Part shown: in pieces, positions 12,704 through 37,653 of the stretch
Layout: the number at the start of each line of letters is the position of its first letter
Position numbering within the stretch: position 1 is the stretch's first letter
Source of the DNA: Candidatus Aenigmatarchaeota archaeon
GTDB taxonomy: Archaea; Aenigmatarchaeota; Aenigmatarchaeia; GW2011-AR5
Direction of reading: 5' to 3'
Assembly (NCBI GenBank): GCA_038045465.1
Contig: JBBSYB010000014.1
Location: 1 to 37,653 of the forward strand
Length of the DNA stretch: 37,653 nt
Translations under genes and position numbers: made by a program
Notes under the pieces: model-generated
Told to the model about the DNA's origin: nothing
Seen by the model: the letters and a program-made list of their open reading frames with translations, nothing else
Database searches by the model: none

Positions 12704-13495
12704 TTAGCCCAAAATTATAAAGAATAAATTTCCAAATAACAGCGTCAGGACAAGGGCTATAGCGAAGACGGGCACAAAGCGCATGCCGTCCTTTATAACT
12801 ACGTAGCGTTTCTGCTTTTTCAGTTTTTTGATGTCTTTTTCCGTCAGGCCGACCCAGTTGCCGTCTTCCAGAACGTCACCTTTTCTCAATTTACTTGTAA
12901 GAATCTTTCTGCGAAATACGCGTTTTTCAATGACGAATGCATATCGCCAGAAAACCAAAAGCAGGAATATAAGCGGAACTAGCTTTGGGATTAAATCAAT
13001 CATTCTTGGCGCAGCTGCGGATGCTGCAAGTATTACGATTAGGACGGCGGCAGGTACTCCGATTATAAATTTTAGATTTTCTCTGAAGTCTTTGGCAACA
13101 TATTTTAACACAGGTCGGTTTAGAAGCCCTATTATTACTGAATAGGCGATGGTGTAAAATATGCTGACAAGCATGAAGTTCATCAGATATGGTACTATGA
13201 ATATTTCACCTCCATAGACAGGTATCATATAGCCAATGGCTGCAAGAATCCATGCATCGGCGGCGCCCCACTGGCCTTTTTTGTACATTATTAGGCCGAT
13301 GACTAGAAGGGTCGTTCCTACTATAATGGAAACGGTAAATGGATACCAGTTTCCCAAAAAACCTTGCAGAATCCAGTAGGCTATGCCAACAATTACCATG
13401 CCGATGGGTAGCTGGTCAGGAACTTCTGTGGTCTTTAGGTCCCATAGACCAGCGAGAATAGAACCTGCGACAGCAATTATCAATATTTCCAGCAT
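12704..13495 (-). CDS. A24-family prepilin/prearchaellin peptidase (PibD/FlaK/EppA-like)
   Basis: Polytopic ORF with two candidate catalytic Asp contexts: WDLKTTEVPD near the N-terminus and GQWGAADAWILAAIG. Confidence 0.65.
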   Translation of the reverse strand: MLEILIIAVAGSILAGLWDLKTTEVPDQLPIGMVIVGIAYWILQGFLGNWYPFTVSIIVGTTLLVIGLIMYKKGQWGAADAWILAAIGYMIPVYGGEIFIVPYLMNFMLVSIFYTIAYSVIIGLLNRPVLKYVAKDFRENLKFIIGVPAAVLIVILAASAAAPRMIDLIPKLVPLIFLLLVFWRYAFVIEKRVFRRKILTSKLRKGDVLEDGNWVGLTEKDIKKLKKQKRYVVIKDGMRFVPVFAIALVLTLLFGNLFFIILG

Positions 13496-16585: not shown

Positions 16586-16741
16586 TGGGTTCGAGGAGAT
16601 TTGAACTCCTGTCTCAAGGTACATCGCACCTTCTTTGGTACTTTCCGAAAAGAAAGGTGTCCCGAACCTCGGATCCTGACCATTCTAGAGCCTTCTTTCC
16701 GCAAGAGCTACGACGAAATGGCTTAGCTAGACTACGAACCC
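16586..16741 (-). tRNA. tRNA-Pro (anticodon CGG) with two introns (D-loop and 37/38)
   Basis: Minus strand. Perfect 7-bp acceptor GGGTTCG/CGAACCC. T-arm AGGAG-TTCAAAT-CTCCT. Anticodon stem CGAGG/CCTTG with loop TT-CGG-GA after removing 16660..16621 (40 nt). The D-arm is only restored after removing about 42 nt (16726..16685). No encoded CCA. Hand-folded; boundaries +/- a few nt. Confidence 0.7.
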
Positions 16742-25446: not shown

Positions 25447-26175
25447 TTATCGCGCGCTCAGATAGTCGCGTATTTTGTTTCTGATGCGCTGATGACCTTC
25501 CTCAAGCAGCAGCGTGTCTGGACTTGATGCAGAAAACGCTTCGTATTCCATTTCAAACGCGTCAAGCGGCCCGTATTTGAATGGTGTCCAGCCATGCTGC
25601 CATTTGTAAACACCGAGAATTTTTCCTGGCTTTGTGCCAAAGGGTTTTCTGAGTTCACATGAAAAAATAACTATGGCCTCGTCAGTGCCGTCTCGATCAA
25701 GGTCTTTGTAGTAGAAATCATCAACCTGATTCCAGTCGGACGGGGCTCCGTGAAGCGAAGAGGCGTCCTGTGATTTATACTCACCACCACCCCAGAAATA
25801 ATATCTGCGCCGGCCATTTTTGAATAGTACTTCAACTTCTTTTTTTCCGTCGTGCCCCATGTCGGTCAGGTTTATTTCTTCTACAACAGATGGTATACGT
25901 GGCTGACTCATCAGTCCTGATATCAGCCGGTCGCCCTGTTTTTTCAGTATAAAAAATGTCGGGGTTGGCGGGCCTTGATAATAAACAAAAATGCAGTTTT
26001 CACCGCCTTTCAAATCCACCGATTTCCATGCTGTTATTTCGCTGCTGCGCCAGCGAGTAGCCTGATTTATTTCTGCTTCTGTTACCTTGTAATCCTGAGC
26101 TGCTACAGTTACGGGTTCCGTAGAAGTGCAGTACAGAGCAAGCGCGGCAGCCGCCAACAATCTTGGAAACCTCAT
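25447..26175 (-). CDS. secreted protein of unknown function (242 aa) with FG-GAP/VCBS-like Asp-rich loops
   Basis: Signal peptide MRFPRLLAAAALALYC...AAQD. Motifs DMGHDGKKE and DLDRDGTDE. Confidence 0.5.
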   Translation of the reverse strand: MRFPRLLAAAALALYCTSTEPVTVAAQDYKVTEAEINQATRWRSSEITAWKSVDLKGGENCIFVYYQGPPTPTFFILKKQGDRLISGLMSQPRIPSVVEEINLTDMGHDGKKEVEVLFKNGRRRYYFWGGGEYKSQDASSLHGAPSDWNQVDDFYYKDLDRDGTDEAIVIFSCELRKPFGTKPGKILGVYKWQHGWTPFKYGPLDAFEMEYEAFSASSPDTLLLEEGHQRIRNKIRDYLSAR

Positions 26176-27380
26176 TTGCGTTCCTCCAGTATAACCATCG
26201 TCGATCCGAACGGTAAATGAGCAACCTGCCTTCTACCCCCGAAGGACAACCACTCATTGAAATCAATGTAAAAGGCTTCCATGTAGTGCTCTTCCATGGC
26301 TTTGCTCTGTCCTGAATAATACGTCGCGAAGGAAAGTTCCCTGCCTGGCGAAGACACCCTCATACCCATCCTCTCGAAATTTACCTGCTTGCCCTGGCGT
26401 TCTGTGATGAAAGAATTTTTTCTAAATTTCAGAGTGCCGCTGAAGTCCTCACCTACACGATTCACAAGGTTCCAGAATTCAATTTTATCTATACTTACGC
26501 TGTCACACATTCTGGCTGCACGATTCCGTTTGAAATCGCCTGCGCCGTTTTCAGCATCCAGATATCTCATCAGAGCTTTAGGGCTGTGGGCTGTATACAA
26601 GGTTGTTCTGCCGTTATTGTCCAAAACCACATTTCCGTTTTTGTCTAACAGTACCGCAGTGTTCCATCCTATACTGTCTGTAGCTATCCTATATTTTGTA
26701 GATTCATTTGGTGAATATTCACTGATTCGACCTTGGGGAGGTGAAGCATAATCTATCTGGATAACACCTTCGTCGTAGTATTCCAAATTGTATCTTGGCC
26801 AGAATCTCCCTTTGAAATAGTCCCTTCCGGTGTTGATTGCAATATCCATATCAGCGCTGATGGAACTCGGAAGATTGCACAGGTCCTGTTTTAATTGTGT
26901 GACAGCACGTTTTTTTGCTACACGAGGCAACTGGTTTCTGGCACTTTGAGCGTTGTAGTCTATTCCCCACCTCACTTCGTTTATTATGACTTTGACCTGC
27001 TCCTCGTAAGAACCTTCAAGCGGCGGTCTTTCTCTTCCAGCTTTGTCATAGAATTCTTTGTTTATGGGTATTGTTAACCCATAGGATGCCGCACAGGGTC
27101 CGTATCGACCACGAATGTTCATATATTGTGAAAACTTTTCATCGTCAGAAATATTGTAATTATAGATGACACCTTGGAATTCAGTGCGAGCCTTCCGGGA
27201 TGTGTTGATAAAATCTATGTTGTCCGGATATTTAGAAAGCGCAGCTTTTACACACGGCACGCTTTCCTTGGCAACTATGCTCTGCTCATAAGCAGAAGTG
27301 CTTCCCTGCATTTCTCGCATGGCTGCTGACGGGCTTGAGAGATAGAGAAGTGTTGCCAGTCCCGCTACTAGCTTTTTCAT
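26172..27380 (-). CDS. secreted protein of unknown function (about 402 aa)
   Basis: Signal peptide MKKLVAGLATLLYLSSPSAA from the Met at 27380. 4-nt overlap with the downstream gene. Confidence 0.55.
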   Translation of the reverse strand: MKKLVAGLATLLYLSSPSAAMREMQGSTSAYEQSIVAKESVPCVKAALSKYPDNIDFINTSRKARTEFQGVIYNYNISDDEKFSQYMNIRGRYGPCAASYGLTIPINKEFYDKAGRERPPLEGSYEEQVKVIINEVRWGIDYNAQSARNQLPRVAKKRAVTQLKQDLCNLPSSISADMDIAINTGRDYFKGRFWPRYNLEYYDEGVIQIDYASPPQGRISEYSPNESTKYRIATDSIGWNTAVLLDKNGNVVLDNNGRTTLYTAHSPKALMRYLDAENGAGDFKRNRAARMCDSVSIDKIEFWNLVNRVGEDFSGTLKFRKNSFITERQGKQVNFERMGMRVSSPGRELSFATYYSGQSKAMEEHYMEAFYIDFNEWLSFGGRRQVAHLPFGSTMVILEERK

Positions 27381-27513
27381 ATAATAAACTGTCGTAATTA
27401 AGCTTAAATTCAAAACTTTCGATAGTGTGACTTAATATGCGGTCACTGCACCGCTTTCTATATATACGGAATCTGTCATATAATATGAACAGGGAACATG
27501 GAGGTATTTAGCT

Positions 27514-27786
27514 ATGTCTGCACCTTACAAAAGAGGTTACACTCACACAAGATCCAAAGGAAAGGAATCGATGGTTGTATGTACTTATTGCGGAAGAAGA
27601 GTGCCACGCTGGAAGACTTTTGTTCAGTACCGGGGTTTCAGAATAAGCGATCCGGGCCTGCGAAAGCAGATAGATCCCAGATTTGTAAGCGGCTTCCAGT
27701 CCAAGATGTATGTATGCCCTTCCTGTGCACGATATCGCGGCATTGTGCAAGTTGGACGCTCACGGAAGAGCAGAAGAGGTCCGTAA
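27514..27786 (+). CDS. rps26e: ribosomal protein S26e
   Basis: Basic N-terminus, ...VVCTYCGRRVPRWK...KMYVCPSCARYRGIVQVGRSRKSRR matches the eS26 zinc-ribbon pattern. GGAGGT lies 8 nt upstream. Confidence 0.65.
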   Translation: MSAPYKRGYTHTRSKGKESMVVCTYCGRRVPRWKTFVQYRGFRISDPGLRKQIDPRFVSGFQSKMYVCPSCARYRGIVQVGRSRKSRRGP

Positions 27787-27806: not shown

Positions 27807-30800
27807 ATGGTAGATAATGTAAAAACGAAAAAGGGAACCAAACTTAGGGGAGCCCTTTACAGAAAATTGCATAGCAAAAAAACTGTTATAAACGGAACCC
27901 GTGCAGGCCAGATGCTATTATGCATGCGAAAAACCGAGGAACCTAAGTTCAGGTTTGAGCCGATGAAATCCCTTATCACATTACCGCGGCCTTCTGACAT
28001 AAAAATAAGCGGTATTGTTTATCCTCTGATAAAACCCTATTCTTATGCCAATATACATTACGACGCCAAGGAAGGTGCTGTAGTATACGATATTATCGAG
28101 CCAAAGCTCAACGAAAAGGAAATATTCATACTCAAAAAGGTTTATGATGGCTTGGTGCAGATAATAGATATTACCCTATCGGACATAAAGGAAAAGGAAA
28201 AGATGATTGTATTCCTTGAAAAGAGCGTTACCCGTCTTCTGGATGAATATGAGATTAAGGTAAGCGAAAAGGAATACGTAAAGATAATGTATTATATTTT
28301 TCGCGACCTGGTTGGCCTCAACCGTATAGAGTCGCTTCTCAATGACCCATACATCGAAGACATAGGATGTGATGGAACAGGAATAGCAATCTATGTTGTG
28401 CACCAGAAGTTTGGTTCTGTGAAGACAAACATTGTTTACCATGAAATCAAAGAGCTGCGCGAATTTGTCACGAAACTCGCGGAAAGATGCGATAGATACA
28501 TCAGCTATGCGGATCCACTACTGGATGGTTCGCTACCGGACGGAACTCGAGTACAGGCATCGCTGGCCAGCGACGTAACTACGCGCGGGCCTACATTCTC
28601 AATAAGAAAGTTCCGCGAAGAGCCAATTTCTCCAGTGGACATGATACGGCTCAATACAGTCTCGGCTGAAATGCTCGCTTATCTATGGTTCTTGATAGAG
28701 AACGACATCAACATACTGATAGCAGGAGGCGTAGCAACTGGCAAAACCAGCCTATTGAACAGCATATCATTTTTCATTCCACCCGAGGCAAAGATAGTCT
28801 CAATTGAGGACAGTGTTACCGGCGACGCGGAAATGCTGATTAAAAGAAACGGAATTGCCGAACTTGTAAAGATAGGCGACCTTGTGGACGAGATGATAAA
28901 CAAGTATGGAAGAGACAAAGAGCACGGCGAAAACAAAGAAGGTATAGAAGTCCTTACCATGGATAAAAACTGCAAAATAGAATTCCAGAAACCCTCTGCA
29001 TTCATACGCCACCTGGTAAACAAAGATATTTATGAAGTTACAACAGCCACAGGCAAAAAAGTAAAGGTCACAAAAGACCATTCTTTATTCGGTCTGGATG
29101 ATTATGGAAACGTGATAGAGGCAAAACCCGAAGACCTGGAAAAAATCAAATTCATCGCAACACCACGCTGCATACCTTACGAAGGGAGTGAAATAACAGA
29201 AATAAATCTGATTGAGCATCTCGACAAACTTAGTGGAGAGTTTCTTACAGGTGCACCTATTTCACGAATTTTTGAAATCCCTTACGACGAATTCAAAAAG
29301 ATAGGCGTTGACAAAGGCAAATACGCATGGTGGAAAAGAAAATCAATGGTATCAACGGACGTTTTTGCGCAATTATCCAACAAAACCACATTTACTAGGG
29401 ACGAAATTGAGCAGATAAGAATAATTGGAAAAAGATCATGCGTTTCTATGCCTGTAATTTTCCCAATAAACGACAACTTTCTCAACTTCTTGGGCTTATG
29501 GGTTGGCGACGGTTGTTATGACAGCAGAAATAAAAACAGGGTAATCATTTCGAACATTGACAAGGAATGCATAGAAGCAGTTAGAAGGCTCGCAGCTTCT
29601 CTAAATATAAACGTAAGCCTGATGTCTGATAACGTTTCAATGAGCCTCAATTCCACCTTGCTGTACAAAGTCATGAAAAACGTCCTCGGCTTTGACGGAC
29701 ATGCGGATACAAAGCGCATACCCACCTTTATACAAAACACATCTAACGGGCAGATATCTGAGTTCTTGAAAGGCTACTTCTCTGCTGACGGAACCGTTAA
29801 AAATTACGAAGCTTCATGTTCGTCACAGAGCCTCGGGTTGCTCAATGATATCCAGACGCTTTTGCTGAGATTTGGCATTATATCAAGAATTTCTCACTAT
29901 ACAAGAAAGGACAAATGCAGAGATCTTTCTATATCATCCAGCGAAAATATATCAAAGTTCAGGCGTATAGGATTCCTTCAGGAAAGGAAGTCCTCAAAAA
30001 TAGAAATACTGGCTAGTAGGCATTCGCACCATACTAAAACAGATATAATTCCGCTCGGCGGAGAACTTGCGGCAGAGATAAATCAGTACCAAAAATTATC
30101 TTTCCCTTACATGAATGGAATGCAGAACATTGGAAGACAATACCTGCAAACTATTGTACGCGACTGCGAGTCCCAGATGCTTCATCAGCTCGCAGAGTCA
30201 GATATATTCTGGGACAAAGTAAGAGATGTAAGAATAATGCCAAGTGAGGAAATTTATGTTTATGATCTTAGCGTTCCGGAGAATGAAAGCTTCGTGTGCT
30301 CGAATATAATCCTCCACAATACACGCGAACTAAACCTGCCGCACGAAAACTGGATACCTGGCGTTGCGCGAACAGGCTTTACTGGCACAGGCGTCGGCGA
30401 GGTCACGATGTTCGAGCTACTGAGAGAGTCATTTAGACAAAACCCGGACTACCTGATAGTCGGAGAAATAAGAGGCAAGGAAGCCTATGTCATGTTCCAA
30501 GGTATGGCGTCTGGTCATCCGTCTATCTCAACTATCCACGCTGGCGGCGTCGAAGATCTCATGAAAAGACTGCAAACAAAACCCATAAGTCTTTCTGTCG
30601 GCCTGATAGAAAGCTTGGACATGGTAATAGTTATGATACACGCGCGCGAGAAAGGAAAGTCAGCGCGACGCGTGAAGGAAATTGTCGAGATAGAAAGCAT
30701 AGACATCAATACAGGCGCCCCGCACAGCGTAAAGTCATTTGTGTGGATACCAGCTGAGGATATCTATGAGTACAGGTCAAATTCGTGGCTGCTTAACAAG

Positions 30801-30995
30801 GTCTCTACGGAGAAAGGAATACCTATGAGCGTCATAGTCAGCGAGATAGCGAAAAGGAAAAAAGTTTTGATATGGATGCTTGAAAACAACATAACGAACA
30901 TGAAAGATATTGCAAAGTACGTAAGCCTTTGTCATCAAAGCCCTGAAAAGATGGCAAGGATTTTGGCAGGCGAAAAAATGCTGGGCGACGAATAA
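27807..30995 (+). CDS. FlaI/VirB11-family (T2SSE) secretion ATPase, intein-containing precursor
   Basis: Walker A IAGGVATGKTS, Walker B/Asp box IVSIED...TRELN (split by the intein), His box GHPSISTIHAG. N-terminal YPLIKPYSYANIHYD...YDIIEPKL is typical of FlaI. The extein sum is 559 aa. Confidence 0.8.
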   Translation: MVDNVKTKKGTKLRGALYRKLHSKKTVINGTRAGQMLLCMRKTEEPKFRFEPMKSLITLPRPSDIKISGIVYPLIKPYSYANIHYDAKEGAVVYDIIEPKLNEKEIFILKKVYDGLVQIIDITLSDIKEKEKMIVFLEKSVTRLLDEYEIKVSEKEYVKIMYYIFRDLVGLNRIESLLNDPYIEDIGCDGTGIAIYVVHQKFGSVKTNIVYHEIKELREFVTKLAERCDRYISYADPLLDGSLPDGTRVQASLASDVTTRGPTFSIRKFREEPISPVDMIRLNTVSAEMLAYLWFLIENDINILIAGGVATGKTSLLNSISFFIPPEAKIVSIEDSVTGDAEMLIKRNGIAELVKIGDLVDEMINKYGRDKEHGENKEGIEVLTMDKNCKIEFQKPSAFIRHLVNKDIYEVTTATGKKVKVTKDHSLFGLDDYGNVIEAKPEDLEKIKFIATPRCIPYEGSEITEINLIEHLDKLSGEFLTGAPISRIFEIPYDEFKKIGVDKGKYAWWKRKSMVSTDVFAQLSNKTTFTRDEIEQIRIIGKRSCVSMPVIFPINDNFLNFLGLWVGDGCYDSRNKNRVIISNIDKECIEAVRRLAASLNINVSLMSDNVSMSLNSTLLYKVMKNVLGFDGHADTKRIPTFIQNTSNGQISEFLKGYFSADGTVKNYEASCSSQSLGLLNDIQTLLLRFGIISRISHYTRKDKCRDLSISSSENISKFRRIGFLQERKSSKIEILASRHSHHTKTDIIPLGGELAAEINQYQKLSFPYMNGMQNIGRQYLQTIVRDCESQMLHQLAESDIFWDKVRDVRIMPSEEIYVYDLSVPENESFVCSNIILHNTRELNLPHENWIPGVARTGFTGTGVGEVTMFELLRESFRQNPDYLIVGEIRGKEAYVMFQGMASGHPSISTIHAGGVEDLMKRLQTKPISLSVGLIESLDMVIVMIHAREKGKSARRVKEIVEIESIDINTGAPHSVKSFVWIPAEDIYEYRSNSWLLNKVSTEKGIPMSVIVSEIAKRKKVLIWMLENNITNMKDIAKYVSLCHQSPEKMARILAGEKMLGDE
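28812..30320 (+). mobile_element. intein (503 aa) with LAGLIDADG homing-endonuclease domain
   Basis: Ser1 (SVTGDAEM), block B TKDHSLF, LAGLIDADG motifs LGLWVGDGCYD and LKGYFSADGTV, block F VYDLSVPENESF, block G ILHN followed by Thr+1. Confidence 0.8.
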
Positions 30996-31049
30996 GCCCT
31001 TTTGGAAAAAGCGCTTGCGGAAAAATAACAAGAAGCCCTTTTGGAAAAA
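30996..31049. repeat. bipartite hairpin element, copy A, with 17-nt direct duplication
   Basis: aagcccttttggaaaaa occurs at 30994-31010 and 31033-31049. aaagcgcttgcggaaaa (31008-31024) is identical to 33454-33470. Confidence 0.6.
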
Positions 31050-31070
31050 TAATGAAATAAGTGTATTATT

Positions 31071-31742
31071 ATGAATAAAATTCCTTCTGGTGTGAGCGGT
31101 CTTGACGAGATTCTTGGCGGCGGCATCCCGGAACGCTATACTATCCTTCTCACAGGAACCTGCGGTTCCGGCAAGACCGTAATGGGGCTTCAATATCTCC
31201 TTTCTTCAAATGACCCGGGCATCTATGTCAGCTTCGAAGAGGAAGAGGATAGCATAAGAGAAACAGCGAAAACATTTGGCTTTGACATAGCAAGGCGCGA
31301 GGCCGCTAAAAAATTCGTCATACTGAAATACGATCCCTTCCGCCTTGAGGACATACTAGAGGTAATAGAAAATAACATACGCGAGATAGGCGCGAAGCGT
31401 GTCGTGTTCGATTCCGTAGCAGCTTTGGGAATATATCTAAAGGACTCTTCTGAACTGAGGAGAATGATACTTCAGATAGACCGGATTATGAAAAAGAACA
31501 AGTGCACCACAGTGATAATTTCAGAGATAGTTCCCGGAAGCTCGTCGTTGTCAAGATTTGGGGTCGAGGAGTTCGTTTCCGACGGTGTTATCGTTCTTGA
31601 TAATATAAATGTCAGGGGCGAGTACAAGCGAGCCGTTACGGTATGGAAACTGCGTGGAGTCGATCATTCTAGACGCGTACATCCATATAATATTACAAGT
31701 CGCGGCATTGTTATAAACCCAAAAACCGTTTTCGTGAAGTGA
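31071..31742 (+). CDS. single-domain KaiC/RecA-superfamily ATPase (FlaH-like)
   Basis: IPSGVSGLDEILGGGIP, Walker A LTGTCGSGKT, Walker B RVVFDSV. At 223 aa it is similar in size to FlaH. Confidence 0.65.
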   Translation: MNKIPSGVSGLDEILGGGIPERYTILLTGTCGSGKTVMGLQYLLSSNDPGIYVSFEEEEDSIRETAKTFGFDIARREAAKKFVILKYDPFRLEDILEVIENNIREIGAKRVVFDSVAALGIYLKDSSELRRMILQIDRIMKKNKCTTVIISEIVPGSSSLSRFGVEEFVSDGVIVLDNINVRGEYKRAVTVWKLRGVDHSRRVHPYNITSRGIVINPKTVFVK

Positions 31743-31755
31743 TCGTGGTGGCTGT

Positions 31756-32622
31756 ATGTACAAGACCATAATAAAACATCTAGGAAGCTTTGGTTCACAC
31801 CACTTTGCAAGCTACCTTAAGCCGCTGCGTGAAGAAGTGATAAAATCAAACCTCAACATACTCTTTGAACTCTATGTTGGCAGGATGATATTCCTGTCAA
31901 TTATGGCATTTTTGCTTTCATCCACGTTCATATTTGTCGTGTTTTCAATCATAAGAGCCGACTTTTTGCTCTCTTTAATAGGCTCGCTTGTAACAGGTAT
32001 TGCAATAGGTTTTACTGTTCTCACGCTGTATCACTCCTATCCATTTCATATTCTCACGAACAAGAAAAACAGCATAGAAGGCAACATGCCCTTTGCCATA
32101 AACCACATGGCAGCCATATCAGCCAGTGGTGTTCCGCCTTTTGTCATGTTCAAGCTGCTGACAAACATACCTGAGTATGGTGAGGTATCCAATGAAGCAA
32201 AGCGTATAGTCAGGAATGTTGACGTGTTCGGCATGGACGTTGTTTCTGCGATGCGCAATGTATCTGAGAGAACGCCTTCTGTGGAATTCAAACACTTTGT
32301 GTACGGAATAATCTCGACGATAGAAACCGGCGGTGATCTTAAGCGATACCTTGAGAATGCAGCAAAGGACGCACTTTTTGATTACAGGTTAAAAAGAGAA
32401 AAATATGTACAGACTCTTGCCACTTATGCAGACTTCTATACGGCTGTCCTTATTGCCGCCCCGCTTTTCTTCGTTTCTGTGCTGTCGGTCATGTCCATGG
32501 TAGGCGGCACGATAATGGGACTAAGCATACCCAATGCCATGAGAATAGGTGTCTATGCCATGATGCCGCTGATGAATATAATGTTTATAATGTTTATACA
32601 CTATACGCAACCTTCGGTGTAA
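31756..32622 (+). CDS. type II secretion F-domain membrane protein (FlaJ/TadB-like, N-terminal half equivalent)
   Basis: 288-aa polytopic ORF with a cytoplasmic helical domain between TM blocks, directly after the ATPases. Confidence 0.55.
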   Translation: MYKTIIKHLGSFGSHHFASYLKPLREEVIKSNLNILFELYVGRMIFLSIMAFLLSSTFIFVVFSIIRADFLLSLIGSLVTGIAIGFTVLTLYHSYPFHILTNKKNSIEGNMPFAINHMAAISASGVPPFVMFKLLTNIPEYGEVSNEAKRIVRNVDVFGMDVVSAMRNVSERTPSVEFKHFVYGIISTIETGGDLKRYLENAAKDALFDYRLKREKYVQTLATYADFYTAVLIAAPLFFVSVLSVMSMVGGTIMGLSIPNAMRIGVYAMMPLMNIMFIMFIHYTQPSV

Positions 32623-32626
32623 ATCC

Positions 32627-33433
32627 ATGAAAAAAATCCAGATGAACCTGAAAATATTGAGTGTTATAACACTTAGCGTTGGCGGAGTCGCACTGCTGAT
32701 TAATTTTATTTTTCTTTCTGTATACCCGACAATTTACGCTTTTGTTAATGTTGGCGCTGCTGTGGTAATAATCGGATTGCCTCTCCTCTACAAATTCAAT
32801 AAGTTCAAAAAAATAAGACTGATAGAGGAATTATTTCCTAAGTATCTCAATGATATAGCATCGAACATAGCCGCAGGCATGACACTACCGCAGGCTATAC
32901 GCGCGACAGCTAACATAGAATACGGAGTGATGACTCCTTACGTGCGTGAAATAGCTTCCAAAGTTTCCTGGGGCATAACATTTGAGCGCATAATGAATGA
33001 TTTTGCGAAAAAGACTGGCAGCAAAGCAATGAAGAGAAACGTCCAGACCATAATAGAAACGCACCGATCCGGCGGCTCCATGGATACCATAATGCGGTCG
33101 GTTGCCCAATCTCTTGTGGAACTGGAGAAAATTAAAAAAGAAAGGTCTGCCTCGGTTTATGCACAGATGATAAACGGCTATCTTATTTTCTTCGTTTTCC
33201 TTGGCGTAATGATAGGACTTTCATCAGTACTGGTCCCGGCCTTCCAAATGAACGAGCAGCAGGAGGATCTCCGGGGCGTCTTCAGCGAGATTTTCCGCGC
33301 GCTCATAATTGTACAAGGGTTTTTCGCTGGCCTTTCCATTGGAAAGATGGCCGAGGGCTCTCTCATAGCAGGCATAAAACACTCCTTAGTGATGGTTGTA
33401 ATAGGTTACTCGGCTTTCCTGCTGTTCGGGTAA
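32627..33433 (+). CDS. type II secretion F-domain membrane protein (FlaJ/TadC-like, C-terminal half equivalent)
   Basis: 268-aa ORF starting 4 nt after the previous stop, with the same TM / helical-domain / TM layout. Confidence 0.55.
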   Translation: MKKIQMNLKILSVITLSVGGVALLINFIFLSVYPTIYAFVNVGAAVVIIGLPLLYKFNKFKKIRLIEELFPKYLNDIASNIAAGMTLPQAIRATANIEYGVMTPYVREIASKVSWGITFERIMNDFAKKTGSKAMKRNVQTIIETHRSGGSMDTIMRSVAQSLVELEKIKKERSASVYAQMINGYLIFFVFLGVMIGLSSVLVPAFQMNEQQEDLRGVFSEIFRALIIVQGFFAGLSIGKMAEGSLIAGIKHSLVMVVIGYSAFLLFG

Positions 33434-33475
33434 GCCCTTTTCTTTGGGAAAGAAAAGCGCTTGCGGAAAAGAAAC
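33434..33475. repeat. bipartite hairpin element, copy B (most complete)
   Basis: Begins at the base after TAA. 9-bp stem cttttcttt-ggg-aaagaaaag (33437-33457), mini-stem cgc-tt-gcg, tail gaaaagaaac. Confidence 0.65.
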
Positions 33476-33608
33476 ATATTATAAATATAAAAAGGGTCTC
33501 ACTGGTGTTCGGATAAAGTTTATATATTGGGAAAGTACAGCTATTATTGATGAACAAAGATGATAATCATCGATATGTCGCAATGATGATTACCATTAAT
33601 GAAGTGTT

Positions 33609-34526
33609 ATGATGACTACAGAAGAAAGGATAACAGACATCGTGGATAATTCCTCCTATGGTCTTACGGTGGAAGAGCTCTCTTTGAAAATGCGTATAAA
33701 CGAAAAAAGCACCCTGCTGTTTCTTGACAGGCTTGTCGCGGAAAAAAAAGTTAAGAAGACGCGGGCGGGCAGCATGTTTTTCTACAGGAAATTTATCATA
33801 ATTATACCTATTATGCTGGTCTTTCTCATGGGAACGGCCAGTGCTCAGGACATCAACAGCACAAACTTCAAGATTATCCCGGTCCTGGACAGCGCCGGCA
33901 CCCGCGCCCAGAGCACCACCTATGTGCTTTTTGGCAGCGTCGGCCAGATATCAAGCACTACAACTTCTGTGTCATTTAGTTTATGTTCCGGCTTCCTGTG
34001 CAATTTCCTCGAACTAATACTCCACGGAAAGATAACATTCCTGCTGGAGTTTAACATAAGTGGGAATGCCAATGACACGGCTTTTGTTGACAACTACACA
34101 CAAACTACACGGCAATACACAACGAGCGACCTCAATAATTATTATGCCTGCCTGCAGGACGTTAATTTGACCAGTAGCCCGACCTTTGGCATAATCTACG
34201 CAGGCTCGGCACTCAACTACATAAACATATCCTCAGGCAACTCATTTGTACTGAGGCTGTCGCAGGACATTCCAGGAAACAAGTTCATAATTCCTATAAC
34301 AAGCGGCAACTGCACTGTTTTCAATACTAGAACAGCGGAAATCGCGCAATATGGAACGCTGCTGCAGCCGTTTGTGCTGGCGAATGAGGCTATTAATGCC
34401 ATTGAACTGGCGCTGAGCTATCCTTCGGTGCAGATTGCAGGCAGCTTTGACAAGAGTGGCGCCTTTGGACTTATATTCGAGAAGAATGAGACGAATGAGA
34501 ATCAGATAATAGTGAAACCGGTGTAG
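33609..34526 (+). CDS. membrane-tethered winged-helix protein with sequon-rich extracellular domain
   Basis: The N-terminal 60 aa align by eye with the soluble wHTH at 35259..35441 (LTVEELS.K..I..ST....L..L...K.V......G..F). Then a single TM (FIIIIPIMLVFLMGTASA) and about 225 aa with many N-x-S/T sites. Confidence 0.55.
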   Translation: MMTTEERITDIVDNSSYGLTVEELSLKMRINEKSTLLFLDRLVAEKKVKKTRAGSMFFYRKFIIIIPIMLVFLMGTASAQDINSTNFKIIPVLDSAGTRAQSTTYVLFGSVGQISSTTTSVSFSLCSGFLCNFLELILHGKITFLLEFNISGNANDTAFVDNYTQTTRQYTTSDLNNYYACLQDVNLTSSPTFGIIYAGSALNYINISSGNSFVLRLSQDIPGNKFIIPITSGNCTVFNTRTAEIAQYGTLLQPFVLANEAINAIELALSYPSVQIAGSFDKSGAFGLIFEKNETNENQIIVKPV

Positions 34527-34530
34527 CAAT

Positions 34531-35262
34531 ATGAAGGGAGATTTAATCAGCGGAGTTGTGGCGATTATAATAGTCGTCAGCTCGACGATCCTTGTGCTCA
34601 ATACAATAAACCCTTTTGTTCAGGAGAGCCAGGATTTTCAGGCATTCAATGAGGCTGAGCAGACTTTGAAATCGATAGACGCGGCTATAAACCAGCTGTT
34701 TGTCGAGGCCCCTGGCGCCAGGCGCACGCTTGATGTAAATGTGCGCAGCGGAAGGCTTGTCGTGTCAGGAACTGAAAACAAAATAAAGATAAGACTGGAG
34801 AACACAAACCTTTTCAGCTCTGGCGTGCGCAGGCAGGAAGGTAACATACTCATATCTAGCGGCGCAGTCATGAATACCTATGAAAGTGATATAGACGGGG
34901 ACGGCAACACGGACCTTGTGCTGGAAAACGGCGTACTGATTTTTGCCATCAAGAAGATTGGCACGCCTTCGGTCCACGGCGTTGTCAACACTACAAACAT
35001 GATAGTTCTTATGCGCAACAAGGTCCTTGATTTAAATGTCAGCTATCCACGCAGCGGCATTTTTATCAATGACAAACAGAACAGCGCTTATGGCGTCGGC
35101 TATACAGAACTTACAAGGCTCGGCCAGAATATTGCTACCAGCTCTATTCATATTTATGTAAATGCCACTCAGGCCAATATGGCTTATGATGTTTCTTTCA
35201 CCCTTGGCGCTTCCCAGGATTTCATTGAGATGCAGGCCACACGAGTTGTAGGAGCTTCATGA
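34531..35262 (+). CDS. archaellin / archaeal type IV pilin-like protein (class III signal peptide)
   Basis: MKG|DLISGVVAIIIVVSSTILVLNTINPFVQ: short basic leader ending in Gly, a hydrophobic helix, and an L-x-N-T-x3-V-Q motif resembling the archaellin N-terminal domain. Confidence 0.5.
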   Translation: MKGDLISGVVAIIIVVSSTILVLNTINPFVQESQDFQAFNEAEQTLKSIDAAINQLFVEAPGARRTLDVNVRSGRLVVSGTENKIKIRLENTNLFSSGVRRQEGNILISSGAVMNTYESDIDGDGNTDLVLENGVLIFAIKKIGTPSVHGVVNTTNMIVLMRNKVLDLNVSYPRSGIFINDKQNSAYGVGYTELTRLGQNIATSSIHIYVNATQANMAYDVSFTLGASQDFIEMQATRVVGAS

Positions 35263-35441
35263 AAATGATAGAAGAGAATATACTCAAATGCCTCAAAAAA
35301 CAGGACATGACGATAGAAGAGGTTTCTAATAAGATTAACATAAGCCGCAGCACCGCATCAAAATACCTTCTGGTTCTAGAGACAAAAGGCTTTGTAAGAT
35401 GCCGCGAGATTGGAAGAGCAAAGCTTTTCTCTTTGAAGTAA
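35259..35441 (+). CDS. small winged-helix DNA-binding protein (60 aa)
   Basis: MTIEEVSNKINISRSTASKYLLVLETKGFV. 4-nt overlap with the preceding gene. Confidence 0.6.
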   Translation: MKMIEENILKCLKKQDMTIEEVSNKINISRSTASKYLLVLETKGFVRCREIGRAKLFSLK

Positions 35442-35473: not shown

Positions 35474-37653
35474 TTAATGACTGAAGAATGAATTTACCTT
35501 TTCTTTTTTCTTGAAACTTTTCCGGAATTTGAAGATTACCAGCGCTGCAATGGCAATTCCTATTATTATGCTTACAGGCAGCGGATTTACCACGAGTAAC
35601 GTCTCAACGAGCTCTTTAATTGTGGACGTTTTTTCGGTTACGATTGTGTCAGGTGAATTCTTTCCCGGAACTGTTGTGCTGCTTGATGCACTTGTTGTGT
35701 TTGTTGTATTTGTTGTTCTTGTTCCTGTATTTGTTCCACCGCTGCCTGAAACTGAACTTGACAGGCATGTTGGAATTCCGGAGCGGCAGTCAACGCCTCC
35801 GGTGCTGCAGGTTGGTGCATAACAGTCCATCTGACACAGGCAATAATTTTCGTTTGACTGGCACACACCGTCACCGCAGGACAGCTGACCGAGATAGAAG
35901 TATCCCGCGTTGCCGAACGTGACAGAGTTTCCGTTTTCATCGGAAGCTGCCAGATCTATCTTATAAGCTCCAGTGCTTGTGGCGCGGATTGTTTTTGTCC
36001 AGTTTCCTGTTGTAAGAACAAGGTCTGCGCTTATGGTTGATCCCGGATTACTTATTGAAGCGGAGACGGACTTCACTGCGCTCCCCTGGTCTATAATATC
36101 TGCTTGTATTGACACGTTGGTCGGTGAGCTGGGATTAAGCGGAGTTATTTTCAGCGAACGGAACTCAGGCGGGTTTTTGTCAACAAATATTATTTTTGAT
36201 TTTGTTGTTGCATGGTCAAGCTTGTCGGTTGCTGCTATCGTGACATTGTACGGGCCGTCTGCCAGCGAACTAAAATCATACTGGCTTGTGCAATACAAAA
36301 TATCGCTTTGCTGCAGGCATGACATTAGTTTTGTTACTCCTAGGATGGTGTAGGAAACTTTCTGGCTGTCGCCATTCGGGTCATTTACCCTTACGTTTAT
36401 CGTTAGAGTGGCTTTTGTATAATTCGCGCTCTCTATTATTATTTCGGGGTTTGTGTTGTCTATGATAAGAGTTCCGGTGTCTTTTATGTCATAGCTAAGG
36501 ACGTTGCTTGCCGATGCTCTCAAGTCGTAAATTCCGTCAGCGAAAGTGTTTGTATTGAATGGATAGGTGCACTGCGTAAAACCAGAGTTGCAACTCATAG
36601 CAGTGCTCAGCGATTGGGATCTGTTCACGTCAAGCGTAACGGCCGTTATTATTCCACCCGGTCTTGTGATTGTTGCGGTAAATGTTATGTTGCCCTTTGC
36701 ATAATTCTTTGGCGTTAGTATCACGAATGGGCGGGAGTTGCGGAAGGTTACGGGCACAACGGAAGAATTGGAGTTGCCGGCGACGTCGTAGACGGTGAAT
36801 GTTATGCTGTAATCATTGTCGGCAAAGTTTTTTGTTTTCACGGTGCTACTGCAGACATTTCCAGAGCAGGCAAGTGGATAGGACTGATTTATGAAATATG
36901 TAACCCTTGTGGTATTCACACCGGAAAATTGGTCGCTGACATTAACGGAAAATATTTTATCATCATTCAATATACTGCCTGATGCTGGTGACGTCACTAA
37001 AAGCAACGGTATCTCATTGTCTATGCTGACATTCACTTCAGCCATGTTGTAGTTGCCCACGTTGTCAGCAGCGCGCACTTTTACGCTTATAATCTGGTTG
37101 TTTGCATAAGGATAGGTGTTGAGGTAGCCTGTCAGGTTTGCCATGGGCGACCATCCCGATCCAGTAGAGAATTGGATCGTTGAAAGGTTCACGCCGGAAA
37201 CTTCGTCAGTGGCGCTAATATTAAGCGTCGTATTTCCGAAAACATAGGTATAGTTCTTTGGATGAATAAATGTTATCTTGGGCGGGGTACGGTCTATCTT
37301 GAATCTCAGCGGGCTTGTCGGACTTCCCAAATTTCCGTAATCAGTATCCTTTGCCGTGAAATAGAAAAATTCCAGGGTATCGCTTCCTGCTATTGAAAAG
37401 GAAACGGATTTTGTGCAGATCCAATTGTCTGCGGCGTACTGGGTGCACTGCATGGTGTAGTTGTCCCAGGACTCGTTGTTCATGTACGCATCTTCTGATA
37501 TCAACGATAGCCATACGTTATTGGTATCTAGGCTAGTGCTGGTTATATTAACAAAGAAATAAACAGAGCCGCGGCCAAAGTAGCTGTTGTTTGCAGGAAG
37601 CGAGTCAAACATCAAAGGTGCTGCATTACCTACGGCAAAAAACACAAAGAATA
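35474..37653 (-). CDS. giant cell-surface protein with tandem Ig-like domains, Cys-rich module, Thr-rich stalk and C-terminal TM anchor (5' end outside window)
   Basis: Reading frame open to the window edge. Recurrent domain-boundary motifs IDRTPPKI, IDNEIPLL, IDNTNPEI, VDKNPPEF. CGDGVCQSNENYCLCQMDC module, TNTGTRTTNTTNTTS linker, and ...NPLPVSIIIGIAIAALVIFKFRKSFKKKEK tail. Confidence 0.65.
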   Translation of the reverse strand, partial: FFVFFAVGNAAPLMFDSLPANNSYFGRGSVYFFVNITSTSLDTNNVWLSLISEDAYMNNESWDNYTMQCTQYAADNWICTKSVSFSIAGSDTLEFFYFTAKDTDYGNLGSPTSPLRFKIDRTPPKITFIHPKNYTYVFGNTTLNISATDEVSGVNLSTIQFSTGSGWSPMANLTGYLNTYPYANNQIISVKVRAADNVGNYNMAEVNVSIDNEIPLLLVTSPASGSILNDDKIFSVNVSDQFSGVNTTRVTYFINQSYPLACSGNVCSSTVKTKNFADNDYSITFTVYDVAGNSNSSVVPVTFRNSRPFVILTPKNYAKGNITFTATITRPGGIITAVTLDVNRSQSLSTAMSCNSGFTQCTYPFNTNTFADGIYDLRASASNVLSYDIKDTGTLIIDNTNPEIIIESANYTKATLTINVRVNDPNGDSQKVSYTILGVTKLMSCLQQSDILYCTSQYDFSSLADGPYNVTIAATDKLDHATTKSKIIFVDKNPPEFRSLKITPLNPSSPTNVSIQADIIDQGSAVKSVSASISNPGSTISADLVLTTGNWTKTIRATSTGAYKIDLAASDENGNSVTFGNAGYFYLGQLSCGDGVCQSNENYCLCQMDCYAPTCSTGGVDCRSGIPTCLSSSVSGSGGTNTGTRTTNTTNTTSASSSTTVPGKNSPDTIVTEKTSTIKELVETLLVVNPLPVSIIIGIAIAALVIFKFRKSFKKKEKVNSFFSH

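What the first reader, a model, noticed from the sequence alone, without database searches (positions are those of the whole stretch)
27807..35441. Rearranged, minimal archaellum-like type IV filament locus (FlaI, FlaH-like, split FlaJ, one archaellin/pilin-like gene, two wHTH genes)
Seen: a FlaI-family ATPase and a single-domain KaiC/FlaH-like ATPase. The membrane platform is encoded as two separate single-domain ORFs (stop 32620-32622, ATG 32627). There is only one protein with a class III signal peptide (34531..35262), and two winged-helix genes are interleaved. Gene order is I-H-J rather than the usual H-I-J. I see no FlaF/FlaG/FlaCDE/FlaX-like genes, and the A24 peptidase lies 15 kb away (12704..13495). 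Established: FlaH is regarded as archaellum-specific among archaeal type IV filament systems, whereas a platform split into two proteins is the hallmark of Tad/Epd-type pili. Inference: this may be a hybrid or undescribed filament-system variant rather than a standard archaellum or adhesive pilus.
Basis: partly seen in the sequence, partly recalled or inferred. Interest (0 to 1): 0.7.

Follow-up and report, generated by a model that had tools for sequence, protein, structure and literature searches.

The report
Conserved DPANN type IV pilus operon
This is the pilus-building gene cluster of a tiny groundwater archaeon (Aenigmatarchaeota); it is real and conserved in relatives, but it is an ordinary archaeal type IV pilus machine, not a hybrid with the archaeal flagellum.

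Summary
These are an intein-split FlaI/VirB11-family ATPase, a single-domain KaiC-fold ATPase, two one-domain T2SSF platform genes, one class III signal-peptide protein, two wHTH elements and a distant A24 peptidase. There are no archaellins or FlaF/G/X/CDE.

The "hybrid" reading fails. The KaiC-fold protein is a generic KaiC-family ATPase, not a FlaH/ArlH orthologue. It scores 43 bits on the ArlH model (cut-off 215), while a cyanobacterial KaiC domain scores 59. The ATPase scores below the FlaI cut-off and groups with A. fulgidus GspE, a published "Clade 2" pilus ATPase.

The platform split is ancestral. It is seen as two ORFs in 62 species-level loci, and all 150 nearest cluster representatives have one domain. 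In 57 of 69 informative related genomes, nearly all DPANN, the KaiC gene is followed directly by the two half-platform genes.

KaiC-family genes in pilus operons and paired platform genes were already described (Makarova 2016; Denise 2019). I therefore call this a new member of a known kind: a DPANN adhesion-type type IV pilus operon.

Side interests are the tight KaiC–platform coupling, an intein-rich ATPase, and a wHTH fused to a signal-peptide-like segment.

The parts
27807..30995 (+). Pilus assembly ATPase (FlaI/VirB11/PilB family, 559-aa extein) interrupted by an intein
   Evidence: Pfam T2SSE 9e-26. The extein scores 380 bits on NCBIfam FlaI, below the 550 cut-off. Best solved relative is A. 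fulgidus GspE 2OAP at 376 bits, ahead of S. acidocaldarius FlaI at 274 and CpaF at 133. Relatives carry Pfam PilB3_N.
28812..30320 (+). 503-aa intein with a LAGLIDADG homing endonuclease, inserted at IVSIED|TREL (Walker B region)
   Evidence: Intein_splicing 3e-23, LAGLIDADG_3 5e-23, Hom_end 2e-5; intein_Nterm. Ser1, a TKDH block, a C-terminal HN and Thr+1 are read from the sequence. Intein-free homologues of 557-561 aa exist.
31071..31742 (+). Single-domain KaiC-family ATPase (not an ArlH/FlaH orthologue); predicted partner or regulator of the pilus motor
   Evidence: PF06745 2e-62. ArlH model 43 bits against a cut-off of 215. PDB: KaiC about 1e-60, PH0284 2e-44, FlaH 4YDS 2e-4. Walker A GSGKT, the EE pair (E56/E57) and D114 are invariant in alignment A3. 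The gene is followed by the two platform genes in 57 of 69 related loci.
31756..32622 (+). Membrane platform, N-terminal half (one T2SSF domain)
   Evidence: T2SSF 5e-16. Aligns to ArlJ model positions 8-248 of 555. All 150 nearest cluster representatives have one domain that ends at the C terminus.
32627..33433 (+). Membrane platform, C-terminal half (one T2SSF domain)
   Evidence: T2SSF 1e-16. Aligns to ArlJ model positions 188-354 of 465 and 261-471 of 555. Only 25% identical to the N half.
33609..34526 (+). 305-aa protein: cytoplasmic wHTH (aa 1-59), a 15-residue hydrophobic segment, a conserved AxA|Q site, and a Cys-containing beta-rich ectodomain. Lineage-specific accessory protein
   Evidence: No Pfam or NCBIfam hit. 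35 homologues, all Aenigmatarchaeota-type. Alignment A2. The model shows wHTH topology at pLDDT 71-83. Foldseek hits MarR/IclR/Rio2 wHTH domains. Adjacent to the pilin-like gene in the closest relatives.
34531..35262 (+). 243-aa pilin-like protein with a class III-type N terminus (MKG|DLISGVVAIIIVV...) and a beta-rich C-terminal domain carrying a DxDxDGxxD motif
   Evidence: It is the only class III candidate in the window. Weak DUF7289 hit at 1e-3. 41 homologues with a conserved N terminus. In the model the C-terminal domain has pLDDT about 90 and the N-terminal helices are low. No PDB fold match.
35259..35441 (+). 60-aa winged-helix DNA-binding protein; its start overlaps the stop of the pilin-like gene
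   Evidence: HTH_IclR 3e-7, TrmB 4e-7, HTH_24 4e-7. A 58-aa counterpart sits at the same place in GW2011_AR5.
12704..13495 (-). A24 prepilin peptidase, encoded about 14 kb upstream
   Evidence: PF01478 3.5e-10, above the cut-off. FlaK model only 29 bits against 330. It has the same position relative to the locus in AR5 and in L008.
27514..27786 (+). Ribosomal protein S26e-like gene. It is the most constant upstream neighbour of the ATPase and may be co-transcribed with it; it is not a pilus part
   Evidence: PF01283 4.5e-5, below the cut-off. It lies upstream of the ATPase in 41 of 73 loci, and in L007, where KaiC and the platform genes are absent.
35474..37645 (-). Large Ig-like surface protein with a Cys-rich stalk and a C-terminal membrane anchor, convergent to the locus. 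Its 5' end is cut by the window end. Possible associated surface protein or adhesin; association not shown
   Evidence: Weak Big_3_3/Big_13/PKD hits. It is 738 aa in L001. It is not conserved at this position in AR5.
30993..31024 (+). Repeated 3' motif TAAGCCCTTTT..AGCGCTTGCGGAAAA directly after the ATPase stop codon
   Evidence: Exact 15-mer found twice in the locus; 0.15 expected by chance. Conserved in L009.
33431..33470 (+). Second copy of the same 3' motif, directly after the platform C-half stop codon; small hairpin
   Evidence: Hairpin of -12.1 kcal/mol, z-score -1.9.

Best explanation
The locus encodes the assembly machine of a non-rotary archaeal type IV pilus in an Aenigmatarchaeota (DPANN) archaeon. 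It is of the kind Makarova et al. call euryarchaeal 'Clade 2' (PilB3/AfGspE-like).

Proposed mechanism:
1. The intein splices out and the ATPase forms the hexameric motor.
2. The motor acts on a membrane platform made of two separately translated half-proteins. These are the N-like and C-like halves of a FlaJ/PilC-type protein, the product of an old gene fission.
3. The distant A24 peptidase trims class III signal peptides. The substrates include the 243-aa KG|D protein and presumably small pilins encoded elsewhere in the genome.
4. The motor then lifts the trimmed subunits into a filament.
5. The single-domain KaiC-family ATPase sits in the operon between the motor and platform genes. It most likely forms a ring that binds and gates the motor or platform in an ATP- or phosphorylation-dependent way.
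6. The small wHTH protein, and perhaps the membrane-tethered wHTH protein, regulate transcription.

The probable use is attachment to surfaces or host cells.

Shown: gene identities, the intein, the fission, the conservation of the operon, and the absence of archaellum-specific genes.
Inferred: filament formation, the role of KaiC, the adhesion function and the regulation.
For: Gene identities come from Pfam and NCBIfam.

ATPase:
- It scores 380 bits on the FlaI equivalog model, below the 550 cut-off.
- Its closest solved structure is AfGspE 2OAP (376 bits, against 274 for FlaI). Makarova's Fig. S4 lists AfGspE as Clade 2, and places Nanoarchaeota ATPases in Clade 2 as well.
- An NJ tree groups the DPANN ATPases with AfGspE at 88% bootstrap, to the exclusion of S. 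acidocaldarius FlaI, with CpaF as root.

KaiC-fold protein: it is KaiC-like, not ArlH-like.

Operon conservation, from 80 species-representative loci retrieved with the KaiC protein:
- KaiC is followed by the N-half and C-half platform genes in 57 of 69 informative loci.
- The ATPase lies directly upstream in 45 of 73.
- Median gaps are 21 nt (ATPase to KaiC) and 41 nt (KaiC to platform), with many 4-nt overlaps.

A paralogous KaiC-plus-half-platforms locus (L073) is followed by six small class III proteins. One of them passes the Pfam threshold for archaeal pilin Pilin_N.

The fission is family-wide.

The published literature already links KaiC-family ATPases and paired tadC genes to archaeal pili.
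Against: - No small major pilin of the Pilin_N type lies in this window. The only class III candidate is 243 aa and resembles published minor pilins more than a filament subunit. Its N-terminal helix is modelled at low confidence.
- The clade assignment of the ATPase rests on three reference sequences only. No Clade 1 (Epd) or Clade 4 reference could be included.
- KaiC-family ATPases are general signalling proteins, so adjacency alone does not show physical binding to the motor.
- There are no expression, proteomic or imaging data for this organism.
Confidence: 0.75

Rival explanations
1. A reduced or hybrid archaellum. On this view an ArlI-ArlH-ArlJ core was kept from an archaellum and combined with a Tad-like split platform, giving a novel filament class.
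For: The best NCBIfam names are FlaI for the ATPase and ArlJ for both platform halves. The ATPase / KaiC-fold / platform trio mirrors ArlI/ArlH/ArlJ. Published MAG surveys annotate such genes in Aenigmarchaeota as FlaI/FlaJ/FlaG (PMC8407114).
Against: All three scores are below the equivalog cut-offs: 380 against 550, 97 against 550, and 43 against 215. The KaiC-fold protein is no nearer to ArlH than cyanobacterial KaiC is. No archaellin, ArlF/G, ArlX or ArlCDE was found in the locus or in any of about 85 related loci that were inspected (by own HMMs, precomputed gene-call annotations or ORF reading). The ATPase groups with the Clade 2 pilus ATPase AfGspE. Both 'hybrid' traits are already described for ordinary archaeal pili.
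Confidence: 0.04
2. An Epd/Tad-lineage pilus by descent. On this view the split platform is the same ancient fission that defines Epd-like and bacterial Tad systems, so the locus belongs to that clade rather than to Clade 2.
For: It has two adjacent one-domain T2SSF genes plus an ATPase plus a RecA/KaiC-fold secondary ATPase. That is exactly the Epd-like core composition described by Denise et al. 2019. Makarova et al. consider Clade 1 a fast-evolving derivative of the euryarchaeal system.
Against: The ATPase is far closer to AfGspE (376 bits) and FlaI (274 bits) than to the Tad ATPase CpaF (133 bits). It scores 159 bits on the TadA-family model against a cut-off of 373. The platform halves hit ArlJ/UpsF models and no TadB/TadC model. 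The gene order here is ATPase, KaiC, N half, C half, whereas Epd has platform, platform, ATPase, FlaH. The locus has no short Flp/Epd-type pilins and no FleN/MinD/TadZ ATPase. No Epd reference sequence was available here, so the question stays open.
Confidence: 0.15
3. Not a long pilus but a short pseudopilus, or a surface-assembly or secretion device (bindosome- or T2SS-like). It would export or anchor the 305-aa and 243-aa proteins.
For: The window holds only one large class III protein and a secreted ectodomain protein, with no small pilin. The ATPase scores 204 bits on the bindosome BasE model.
Against: The BasE score is far below its cut-off of 1000 and below the FlaI and AfGspE scores. 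Related KaiC-plus-platform loci carry full sets of small pilins, including a Pilin_N member. Pilins encoded in trans are usual for Clade 2 systems.
Confidence: 0.06

Closest known systems
Euryarchaeal 'Clade 2' type IV pili (Haloferax volcanii PilB3-PilC3 and PilB4 loci; A. fulgidus GspE AF0659) as defined by Makarova, Koonin & Albers 2016
   Same: The ATPase is of AfGspE/PilB3_N type. Many loci have two tadC-like genes. KaiC-family ATPase genes occur in or next to the operon. There is a large beta-rich class III 'minor pilin' (arCOG02911-like; here a weak DUF7289 match). Transcription regulators lie in the locus. Pilins are often encoded in trans. Nanoarchaeota ATPases already fall in this clade.
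   Different: This locus is in Aenigmatarchaeota. It has a fixed operon order: S26e, ATPase, KaiC, N half, C half. The KaiC gene is almost always glued to the platform genes. The accessory proteins (305-aa and 243-aa families) are lineage-specific and have no Pfam family. The ATPase is invaded by inteins.
Epd pilus of Methanococcus maripaludis and bacterial Tad (Flp) pilus (Denise et al. 2019)
   Same: The platform is encoded by two adjacent genes, each with one T2SSF domain, derived by fission of a two-domain ancestor. A secondary P-loop ATPase lies next to the motor ATPase.
   Different: The ATPase and the platform halves are much closer to AfGspE/FlaI and ArlJ than to CpaF and TadB/C. The gene order differs: here the halves are collinear with the unsplit gene. 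The secondary ATPase is KaiC-type, not FlaH (arCOG04148) or TadZ/FleN. The locus has no short Flp/Epd pilins and no recognisable EppA.
Archaellum motor core ArlI-ArlH-ArlJ
   Same: It has the same three protein folds (VirB11-type hexameric ATPase, single RecA/KaiC-fold domain, polytopic T2SSF platform), encoded side by side.
   Different: There are no archaellins, ArlF/G, ArlX or ArlCDE. The KaiC-fold protein is not an ArlH orthologue. The platform is split. The order is I-'H'-J. The ATPase scores below the FlaI cut-off and groups with a pilus ATPase.

Membership tests
Archaellum | Archaellin (ArlB/FlaB, PF01917) genes | tested here: not met
   No archaellin model hit any ORF from 27.5 to 37.6 kb at E<=0.1 (Pfam) or 0.01 (NCBIfam). 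There is only one class III ORF in the window. None was seen in the related loci whose genes were inspected.
Archaellum | ArlF/ArlG and ArlX or ArlCDE accessory genes | tested here: not met
   No hits in the locus ORFs. The rest of the genome could not be examined.
Archaellum | ArlH/FlaH orthologue | tested here: not met
   NCBIfam ArlH 43 bits (cut-off 215); FlaH PRK06067 32 bits (cut-off 194). Cyanobacterial KaiC CI scores 59 bits on the same ArlH model. PDB FlaH 4YDS 24 bits, against 155 bits for PH0284 and about 200 bits for KaiC.
Archaellum | ArlI/FlaI orthologue | tested here: not met
   The extein scores 380 bits against the 550 cut-off. It groups with AfGspE rather than S. acidocaldarius FlaI at 88% bootstrap, with three references only.
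Archaellum | Single two-domain ArlJ platform | tested here: not met
   Two ORFs with one T2SSF domain each. The split is conserved in 62 loci.
Archaeal type IV pilus, Clade 2 (Makarova 2016) | ATPase belongs to the Clade 2 branch (arCOG01817, AfGspE/PilB3-like) | tested here: inconclusive
   The evidence leans towards met. The best PDB hit is AfGspE, which Fig. S4 assigns to Clade 2. The NJ tree gives 88% support. Relatives carry PilB3_N. No Clade 1 or Clade 4 reference sequences were available.
Archaeal type IV pilus, Clade 2 (Makarova 2016) | TadC/PilC-like platform gene(s) next to the ATPase, often two | tested here: met
.
Archaeal type IV pilus, Clade 2 (Makarova 2016) | Class III signal-peptide proteins and an A24 prepilin peptidase | tested here: met
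   The 243-aa protein has a conserved MKG|D + hydrophobic N terminus. A24 peptidase PF01478. Cleavage itself is not testable here.
Archaeal type IV pilus, Clade 2 (Makarova 2016) | Major pilin of PilA/Pilin_N type | tested here: not met
   None in this window. One is present in the paralogous locus L073. Pilins in trans are common in this clade.
Epd-like / Tad pili (Denise 2019) | Two adjacent platform genes, each with one T2SSF domain | tested here: met
Epd-like / Tad pili (Denise 2019) | ATPase in the Epd/Tad clade | tested here: inconclusive
   CpaF scores 133 bits against 376 for AfGspE. The TadA-family model scores 159 bits against a cut-off of 373. No Epd ATPase reference was available.
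Epd-like / Tad pili (Denise 2019) | Short Flp/Epd-type major pilins and a FleN/MinD/TadZ-type ATPase in the locus | tested here: not met
   No such ORFs or hits from 27.5 to 37.6 kb.
KaiC family (PF06745), archaeal single-domain type | KaiC domain above the Pfam threshold, with Walker A, a catalytic Glu pair and a Walker B Asp | tested here: met
   211 bits against a cut-off of 26.6. GSGKT, E56/E57 and D114 are invariant in alignment A3 and align with KaiC CI. The protein has one domain only, like PH0284 and SSO2452.
Class 1 intein with LAGLIDADG homing endonuclease | Splicing blocks (Ser/Cys1, TxxH, terminal HN, nucleophile at +1) and an endonuclease domain, with in-frame restoration of the host protein | tested here: met
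   Splicing activity is not testable here.

The most novel reading that the evidence does not exclude
In Aenigmatarchaeota and other DPANN archaea the KaiC-type ATPase may not be a loosely linked regulator. It may be an obligatory third subunit of a non-rotary pilus motor, docked between the PilB-like ATPase and the two-piece platform. That would be an ArlI-ArlH-ArlJ-like architecture outside the archaellum. It would give a concrete living model for the 'unknown source' from which the archaellum recruited ArlH (PMC9087265).
Probability: 0.2. Interest if true: 0.55.

Novelty: new member of a known kind. Interest (0 to 1): 0.3.

Why it matters
- Annotation. Automatic labels (FlaI, FlaJ, 'FlaH-like') lead MAG studies to credit DPANN archaea with partial archaella and motility (for example PMC8407114). 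This analysis shows the genes form a pilus operon, which fits an attached, host-dependent lifestyle.
- Experimental target. The operon S26e–ATPase–KaiC–half-platform–half-platform is one of the most conserved surface-structure modules in Aenigmatarchaeota. That makes it a sensible target for imaging and for host-attachment studies.
- KaiC coupling. The near-obligate KaiC–platform linkage gives a clean system for asking what KaiC-fold rings do on type IV filament motors.

None of this overturns current views.

Tried and rejected
- Assembly error at the platform junction. Rejected: the junction is identical in independent assemblies and strains, there are 62 split pairs with varied spacers, and there are 150 one-domain representatives.
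- KaiC fused to the platform half in the long relatives of 550-1000 aa (a possible Rosetta-stone fusion). Rejected: the N-terminal extensions are K/E-rich and have no KaiC or other Pfam domain.
- Fold assignment of the 243-aa protein by AlphaFold2 plus Foldseek against the PDB. No match better than E=0.04.
- Fold assignment of the 305-aa ectodomain. The model confidence was too low; only the wHTH is interpretable.
- The repeated 3' motif as a structured RNA or terminator. Only a weak hairpin was found (z-scores -1.9 and +0.7). Its function is left open.
- A full reference phylogeny (Epd, Aap, Ups, Tad, archaellum). No named reference sequences could be fetched, so I had to settle for three PDB sequences.
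- Makarova et al. 2017 (KaiC hubs, PMC5717392). The paper is not held in the library.
- tRNA scan of the window. None found.

Full report
**Origin of the window.** The KaiC-fold protein of the window is encoded, residue for residue, on contigs from Hainich groundwater (ENA ERZ1292640, 0.2 µm fraction), on NCBI MAG GCA_964363835.1 and on a Logan assembly. The closest homologues of the ATPase are annotated as Candidatus Aenigmatarchaeota, and one is from archaeon GW2011_AR5. The organism is therefore a DPANN archaeon.

**Check of the observation.**
- The 1062-aa ORF at 27807-30995 has T2SSE matches on both sides of an intein with a LAGLIDADG endonuclease.
- I located the intein at aa 336-838 (nt 28812-30320). 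It starts with Ser, has a TKDH block, ends in HN and is followed by Thr. It sits in IVSIED|TREL.
- Removing it gives a 559-aa protein that matches the FlaI model in one stretch, positions 25-516 of 527. It is 87% identical, end to end, to an intein-free 557-aa homologue.
- The ORF at 31071-31742 is a single KaiC domain (2e-62).
- The ORFs at 31756-32622 and 32627-33433 each carry one T2SSF domain. They align with the N half and the C half of ArlJ models. They are only 25% identical to each other.
- The junction reads TAA-ATCC-ATG.
- The 243-aa product of 34531-35262 is the only ORF in the 37.6-kb window with a class III-like N terminus.
- The 60-aa product of 35259-35441 hits many winged-helix models.
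- The first ~59 residues of the 305-aa protein fold as a wHTH at pLDDT 71-83. They match MarR/IclR/Rio2 wHTH domains in Foldseek.
- The A24 peptidase is at 12704-13495 on the minus strand.
- No archaellin, FlaF/G, FlaX or FlaCDE model hit any locus ORF.

**Is the split platform an artefact?** No. The junction is identical in three other assemblies, two of which are a different strain with 14 mismatches over 7.6 kb. In 80 species-representative loci I found 62 N-half/C-half pairs as separate ORFs. Their spacers range from -4 to +170 nt, with a mode of 4. An exhaustive HMMER search of 1.84 billion cluster representatives with the N half gave 328 hits below 1e-30. In all 150 best hits the match is a single T2SSF half that runs to within about 45 residues of the C terminus. 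Ten of the long hits have exactly one T2SSF domain, behind K/E-rich extensions with no Pfam domain. The fission is old and family-wide.

**Is the KaiC-fold protein FlaH?** No.
- On NCBIfam it scores 166 bits on KaiC, 159 on thermo_KaiC_1 and 147 on KaiC_arch_3. It scores only 43 bits on ArlH (cut-off 215) and 32 and 24 bits on the two FlaH models.
- In the PDB it matches cyanobacterial KaiC at about 1e-60, PH0284 at 2e-44 and SSO2452 at 8e-23. S. acidocaldarius FlaH (4YDS) scores only 2e-4.
- As a control, a cyanobacterial KaiC CI domain scores 59 bits on the ArlH model, which is more than the window protein. Other KaiC paralogues from related loci score 24-45 bits.
- The protein keeps the Walker A motif, the KaiC Glu pair and the Walker B Asp. 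An active P-loop enzyme is therefore plausible.

**Is the ATPase FlaI?** It is below the equivalog cut-off (380 against 550). Its best solved relative is A. fulgidus GspE (2OAP, 376 bits), ahead of S. acidocaldarius FlaI (274) and the Tad ATPase CpaF (133). Makarova et al. list AfGspE AF0659 as the typical Clade 2 ATPase and place Nanoarchaeota ATPases in Clade 2 (supplement). A neighbour-joining tree of 12 DPANN ATPases with these three references groups DPANN with AfGspE at 88% bootstrap and excludes FlaI. This is suggestive, not conclusive, because no Clade 1 or Clade 4 reference was available.

**Synteny.**
- In GW2011_AR5 (ATPase 77% identical) the order is S26e, ATPase, KaiC, N half, C half, 302-aa protein, 242-aa protein, small HTH. 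This is the same as in the window. The A24 peptidase, UPP synthase, Hel308 and polyprenyl synthase lie upstream as they do here.
- More distant genomes keep S26e–ATPase–KaiC–N half–C half, S26e–ATPase–KaiC or only S26e–ATPase.
- A scan of one genome per GTDB species with a KaiC alignment found 523 relatives. The best 80 are nearly all labelled Aenigmatarchaeota or other DPANN.
- I annotated them with my own HMMs. KaiC is followed by both half-platform genes in 57 of 69 loci with enough downstream DNA. The ATPase is directly upstream in 45 of 73. The full set is present in 36 of 64.
- Median gaps are 21 nt (ATPase to KaiC) and 41 nt (KaiC to platform), and many pairs overlap by 4 nt.
- A second type of locus (for example L073) has KaiC and both halves without an adjacent ATPase. 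It is followed by six small class III proteins, one of which passes the Pfam threshold for the archaeal pilin N-terminal domain.

These are therefore pilus loci, and KaiC is a stable operon member.

**Accessory proteins.**
- The 243-aa family has only 41 detectable members. It has a conserved MKG|D-x-I-S-G-V hydrophobic N terminus and an invariant DxDxDGxxD-type acidic motif. Its C-terminal beta domain is modelled confidently but has no PDB counterpart. A weak DUF7289 hit, its size and its all-beta make-up resemble the arCOG02911 'minor pilin' of Clade 2 systems.
- The 305-aa family has 35 members. It combines a wHTH, a 15-residue hydrophobic segment, a conserved AxA|Q site and a Cys-containing ectodomain. 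Distant homologues carry the ectodomain behind an ordinary signal peptide.

**Comparison with the literature.**
[quoted passage not shown] They also state that many Clade 1, 2 and 4B loci have two tadC-like genes.
- Denise et al. 2019 show that Epd-like and Tad systems have two one-domain platform genes derived by fission. These lie next to the ATPase and a secondary ATPase: FlaH (arCOG04148) in Epd.
- Makarova et al. 2019 already show DPANN pilus islands with divergent pilins.
- I found no paper that describes this particular DPANN operon, but its composition is within what is known.
- The origin of ArlH is described as unknown. This gives the tight KaiC–motor–platform linkage some residual interest.

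**Verdict.** The best explanation is a Clade-2-type, adhesion-type type IV pilus operon that is conserved across Aenigmatarchaeota. It has a KaiC-family ATPase as a probable motor partner or regulator. I rate it a new member of a known kind, with interest 0.3.

Noticed in passing
window 28812-30320; L009 1306-4461; L010 4816-7974; L017 4771-7893; L033 3496-8004; L084 4790-7849: The pilus ATPase gene is an intein hot spot with at least three insertion sites. The window and L033 have one at extein residue ~336 (IED|T). L009, L010 and L017 have one at ~188. L033 and L084 have one at ~399, so L033 has two. The window's closest relative, L009, lacks the window's intein but has one at a different site. 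Most relatives have none.
   Followed up: partly
window 33609-34526 (aa 1-80): A folded cytoplasmic wHTH is joined to a short (15-residue) hydrophobic segment and a conserved AxA|Q site. It looks like a Sec signal peptide whose n-region is a DNA-binding domain. If signal peptidase cuts there, secretion of the ectodomain would leave a membrane-held wHTH fragment, which could link secretion to transcription. This is purely inferred.
   Followed up: partly
window 30993-31024, 33431-33470, 16695-16709(-); L009 4477-4490 and 7010-7023; L008 6231-6244(-): The motif TAAGCCCTTTT…AGCGCTTGCGGAAAA lies directly after stop codons. The exact 15-mer occurs twice in the locus, with 0.15 expected by chance. 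It is conserved at both homologous sites in a related species. Predicted hairpins are weak. It could be a terminator, a 3' end element or a regulator site.
   Followed up: partly
window 27514-27786 and the same position in L004-L008 and 41 of 73 other loci: A ribosomal protein S26e-like gene sits 20 nt upstream of the ATPase and is its most constant neighbour. This holds even where the KaiC and platform genes are elsewhere (L007). It suggests the pilus ATPase is co-transcribed with a housekeeping gene.
   Followed up: partly
P0205, P0208, P0213 and many others: Many relatives of the N-half platform protein carry 200-700-residue K/E-rich, probably disordered, N-terminal cytoplasmic extensions with no recognisable domain.
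   Followed up: partly
window 34531-35262 (aa 117-133): An invariant acidic loop, YESDIDGDGNTDLVLEN (DxDxDGxxD, calcium-binding-like), lies in the confidently modelled beta domain of the pilin-like protein.
   Followed up: no
L006 11906-12350 and 15332-16560: In one relative, toxin-antitoxin pairs are inserted into the operon without disrupting it. HicAB lies between the ATPase and KaiC, and MazE/PIN genes lie after the platform genes.
   Followed up: no
window 25447-27413(-): Two signal-peptide proteins (242 and 413 aa) with no family match lie between polyprenyl synthase and S26e. They are absent at this position in GW2011_AR5, so they are a strain- or species-specific insertion. GC content there is slightly higher (0.456).
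   Followed up: no
window 35474-37645(-): A large Ig-like surface protein with many N-glycosylation sequons, a Cys-rich stalk and a C-terminal membrane anchor is convergent to the locus. Its 5' end is cut by the window end. It resembles the S-layer-like proteins that Makarova et al. find near some pilus loci, but it is not conserved at this position in AR5.
   Followed up: no
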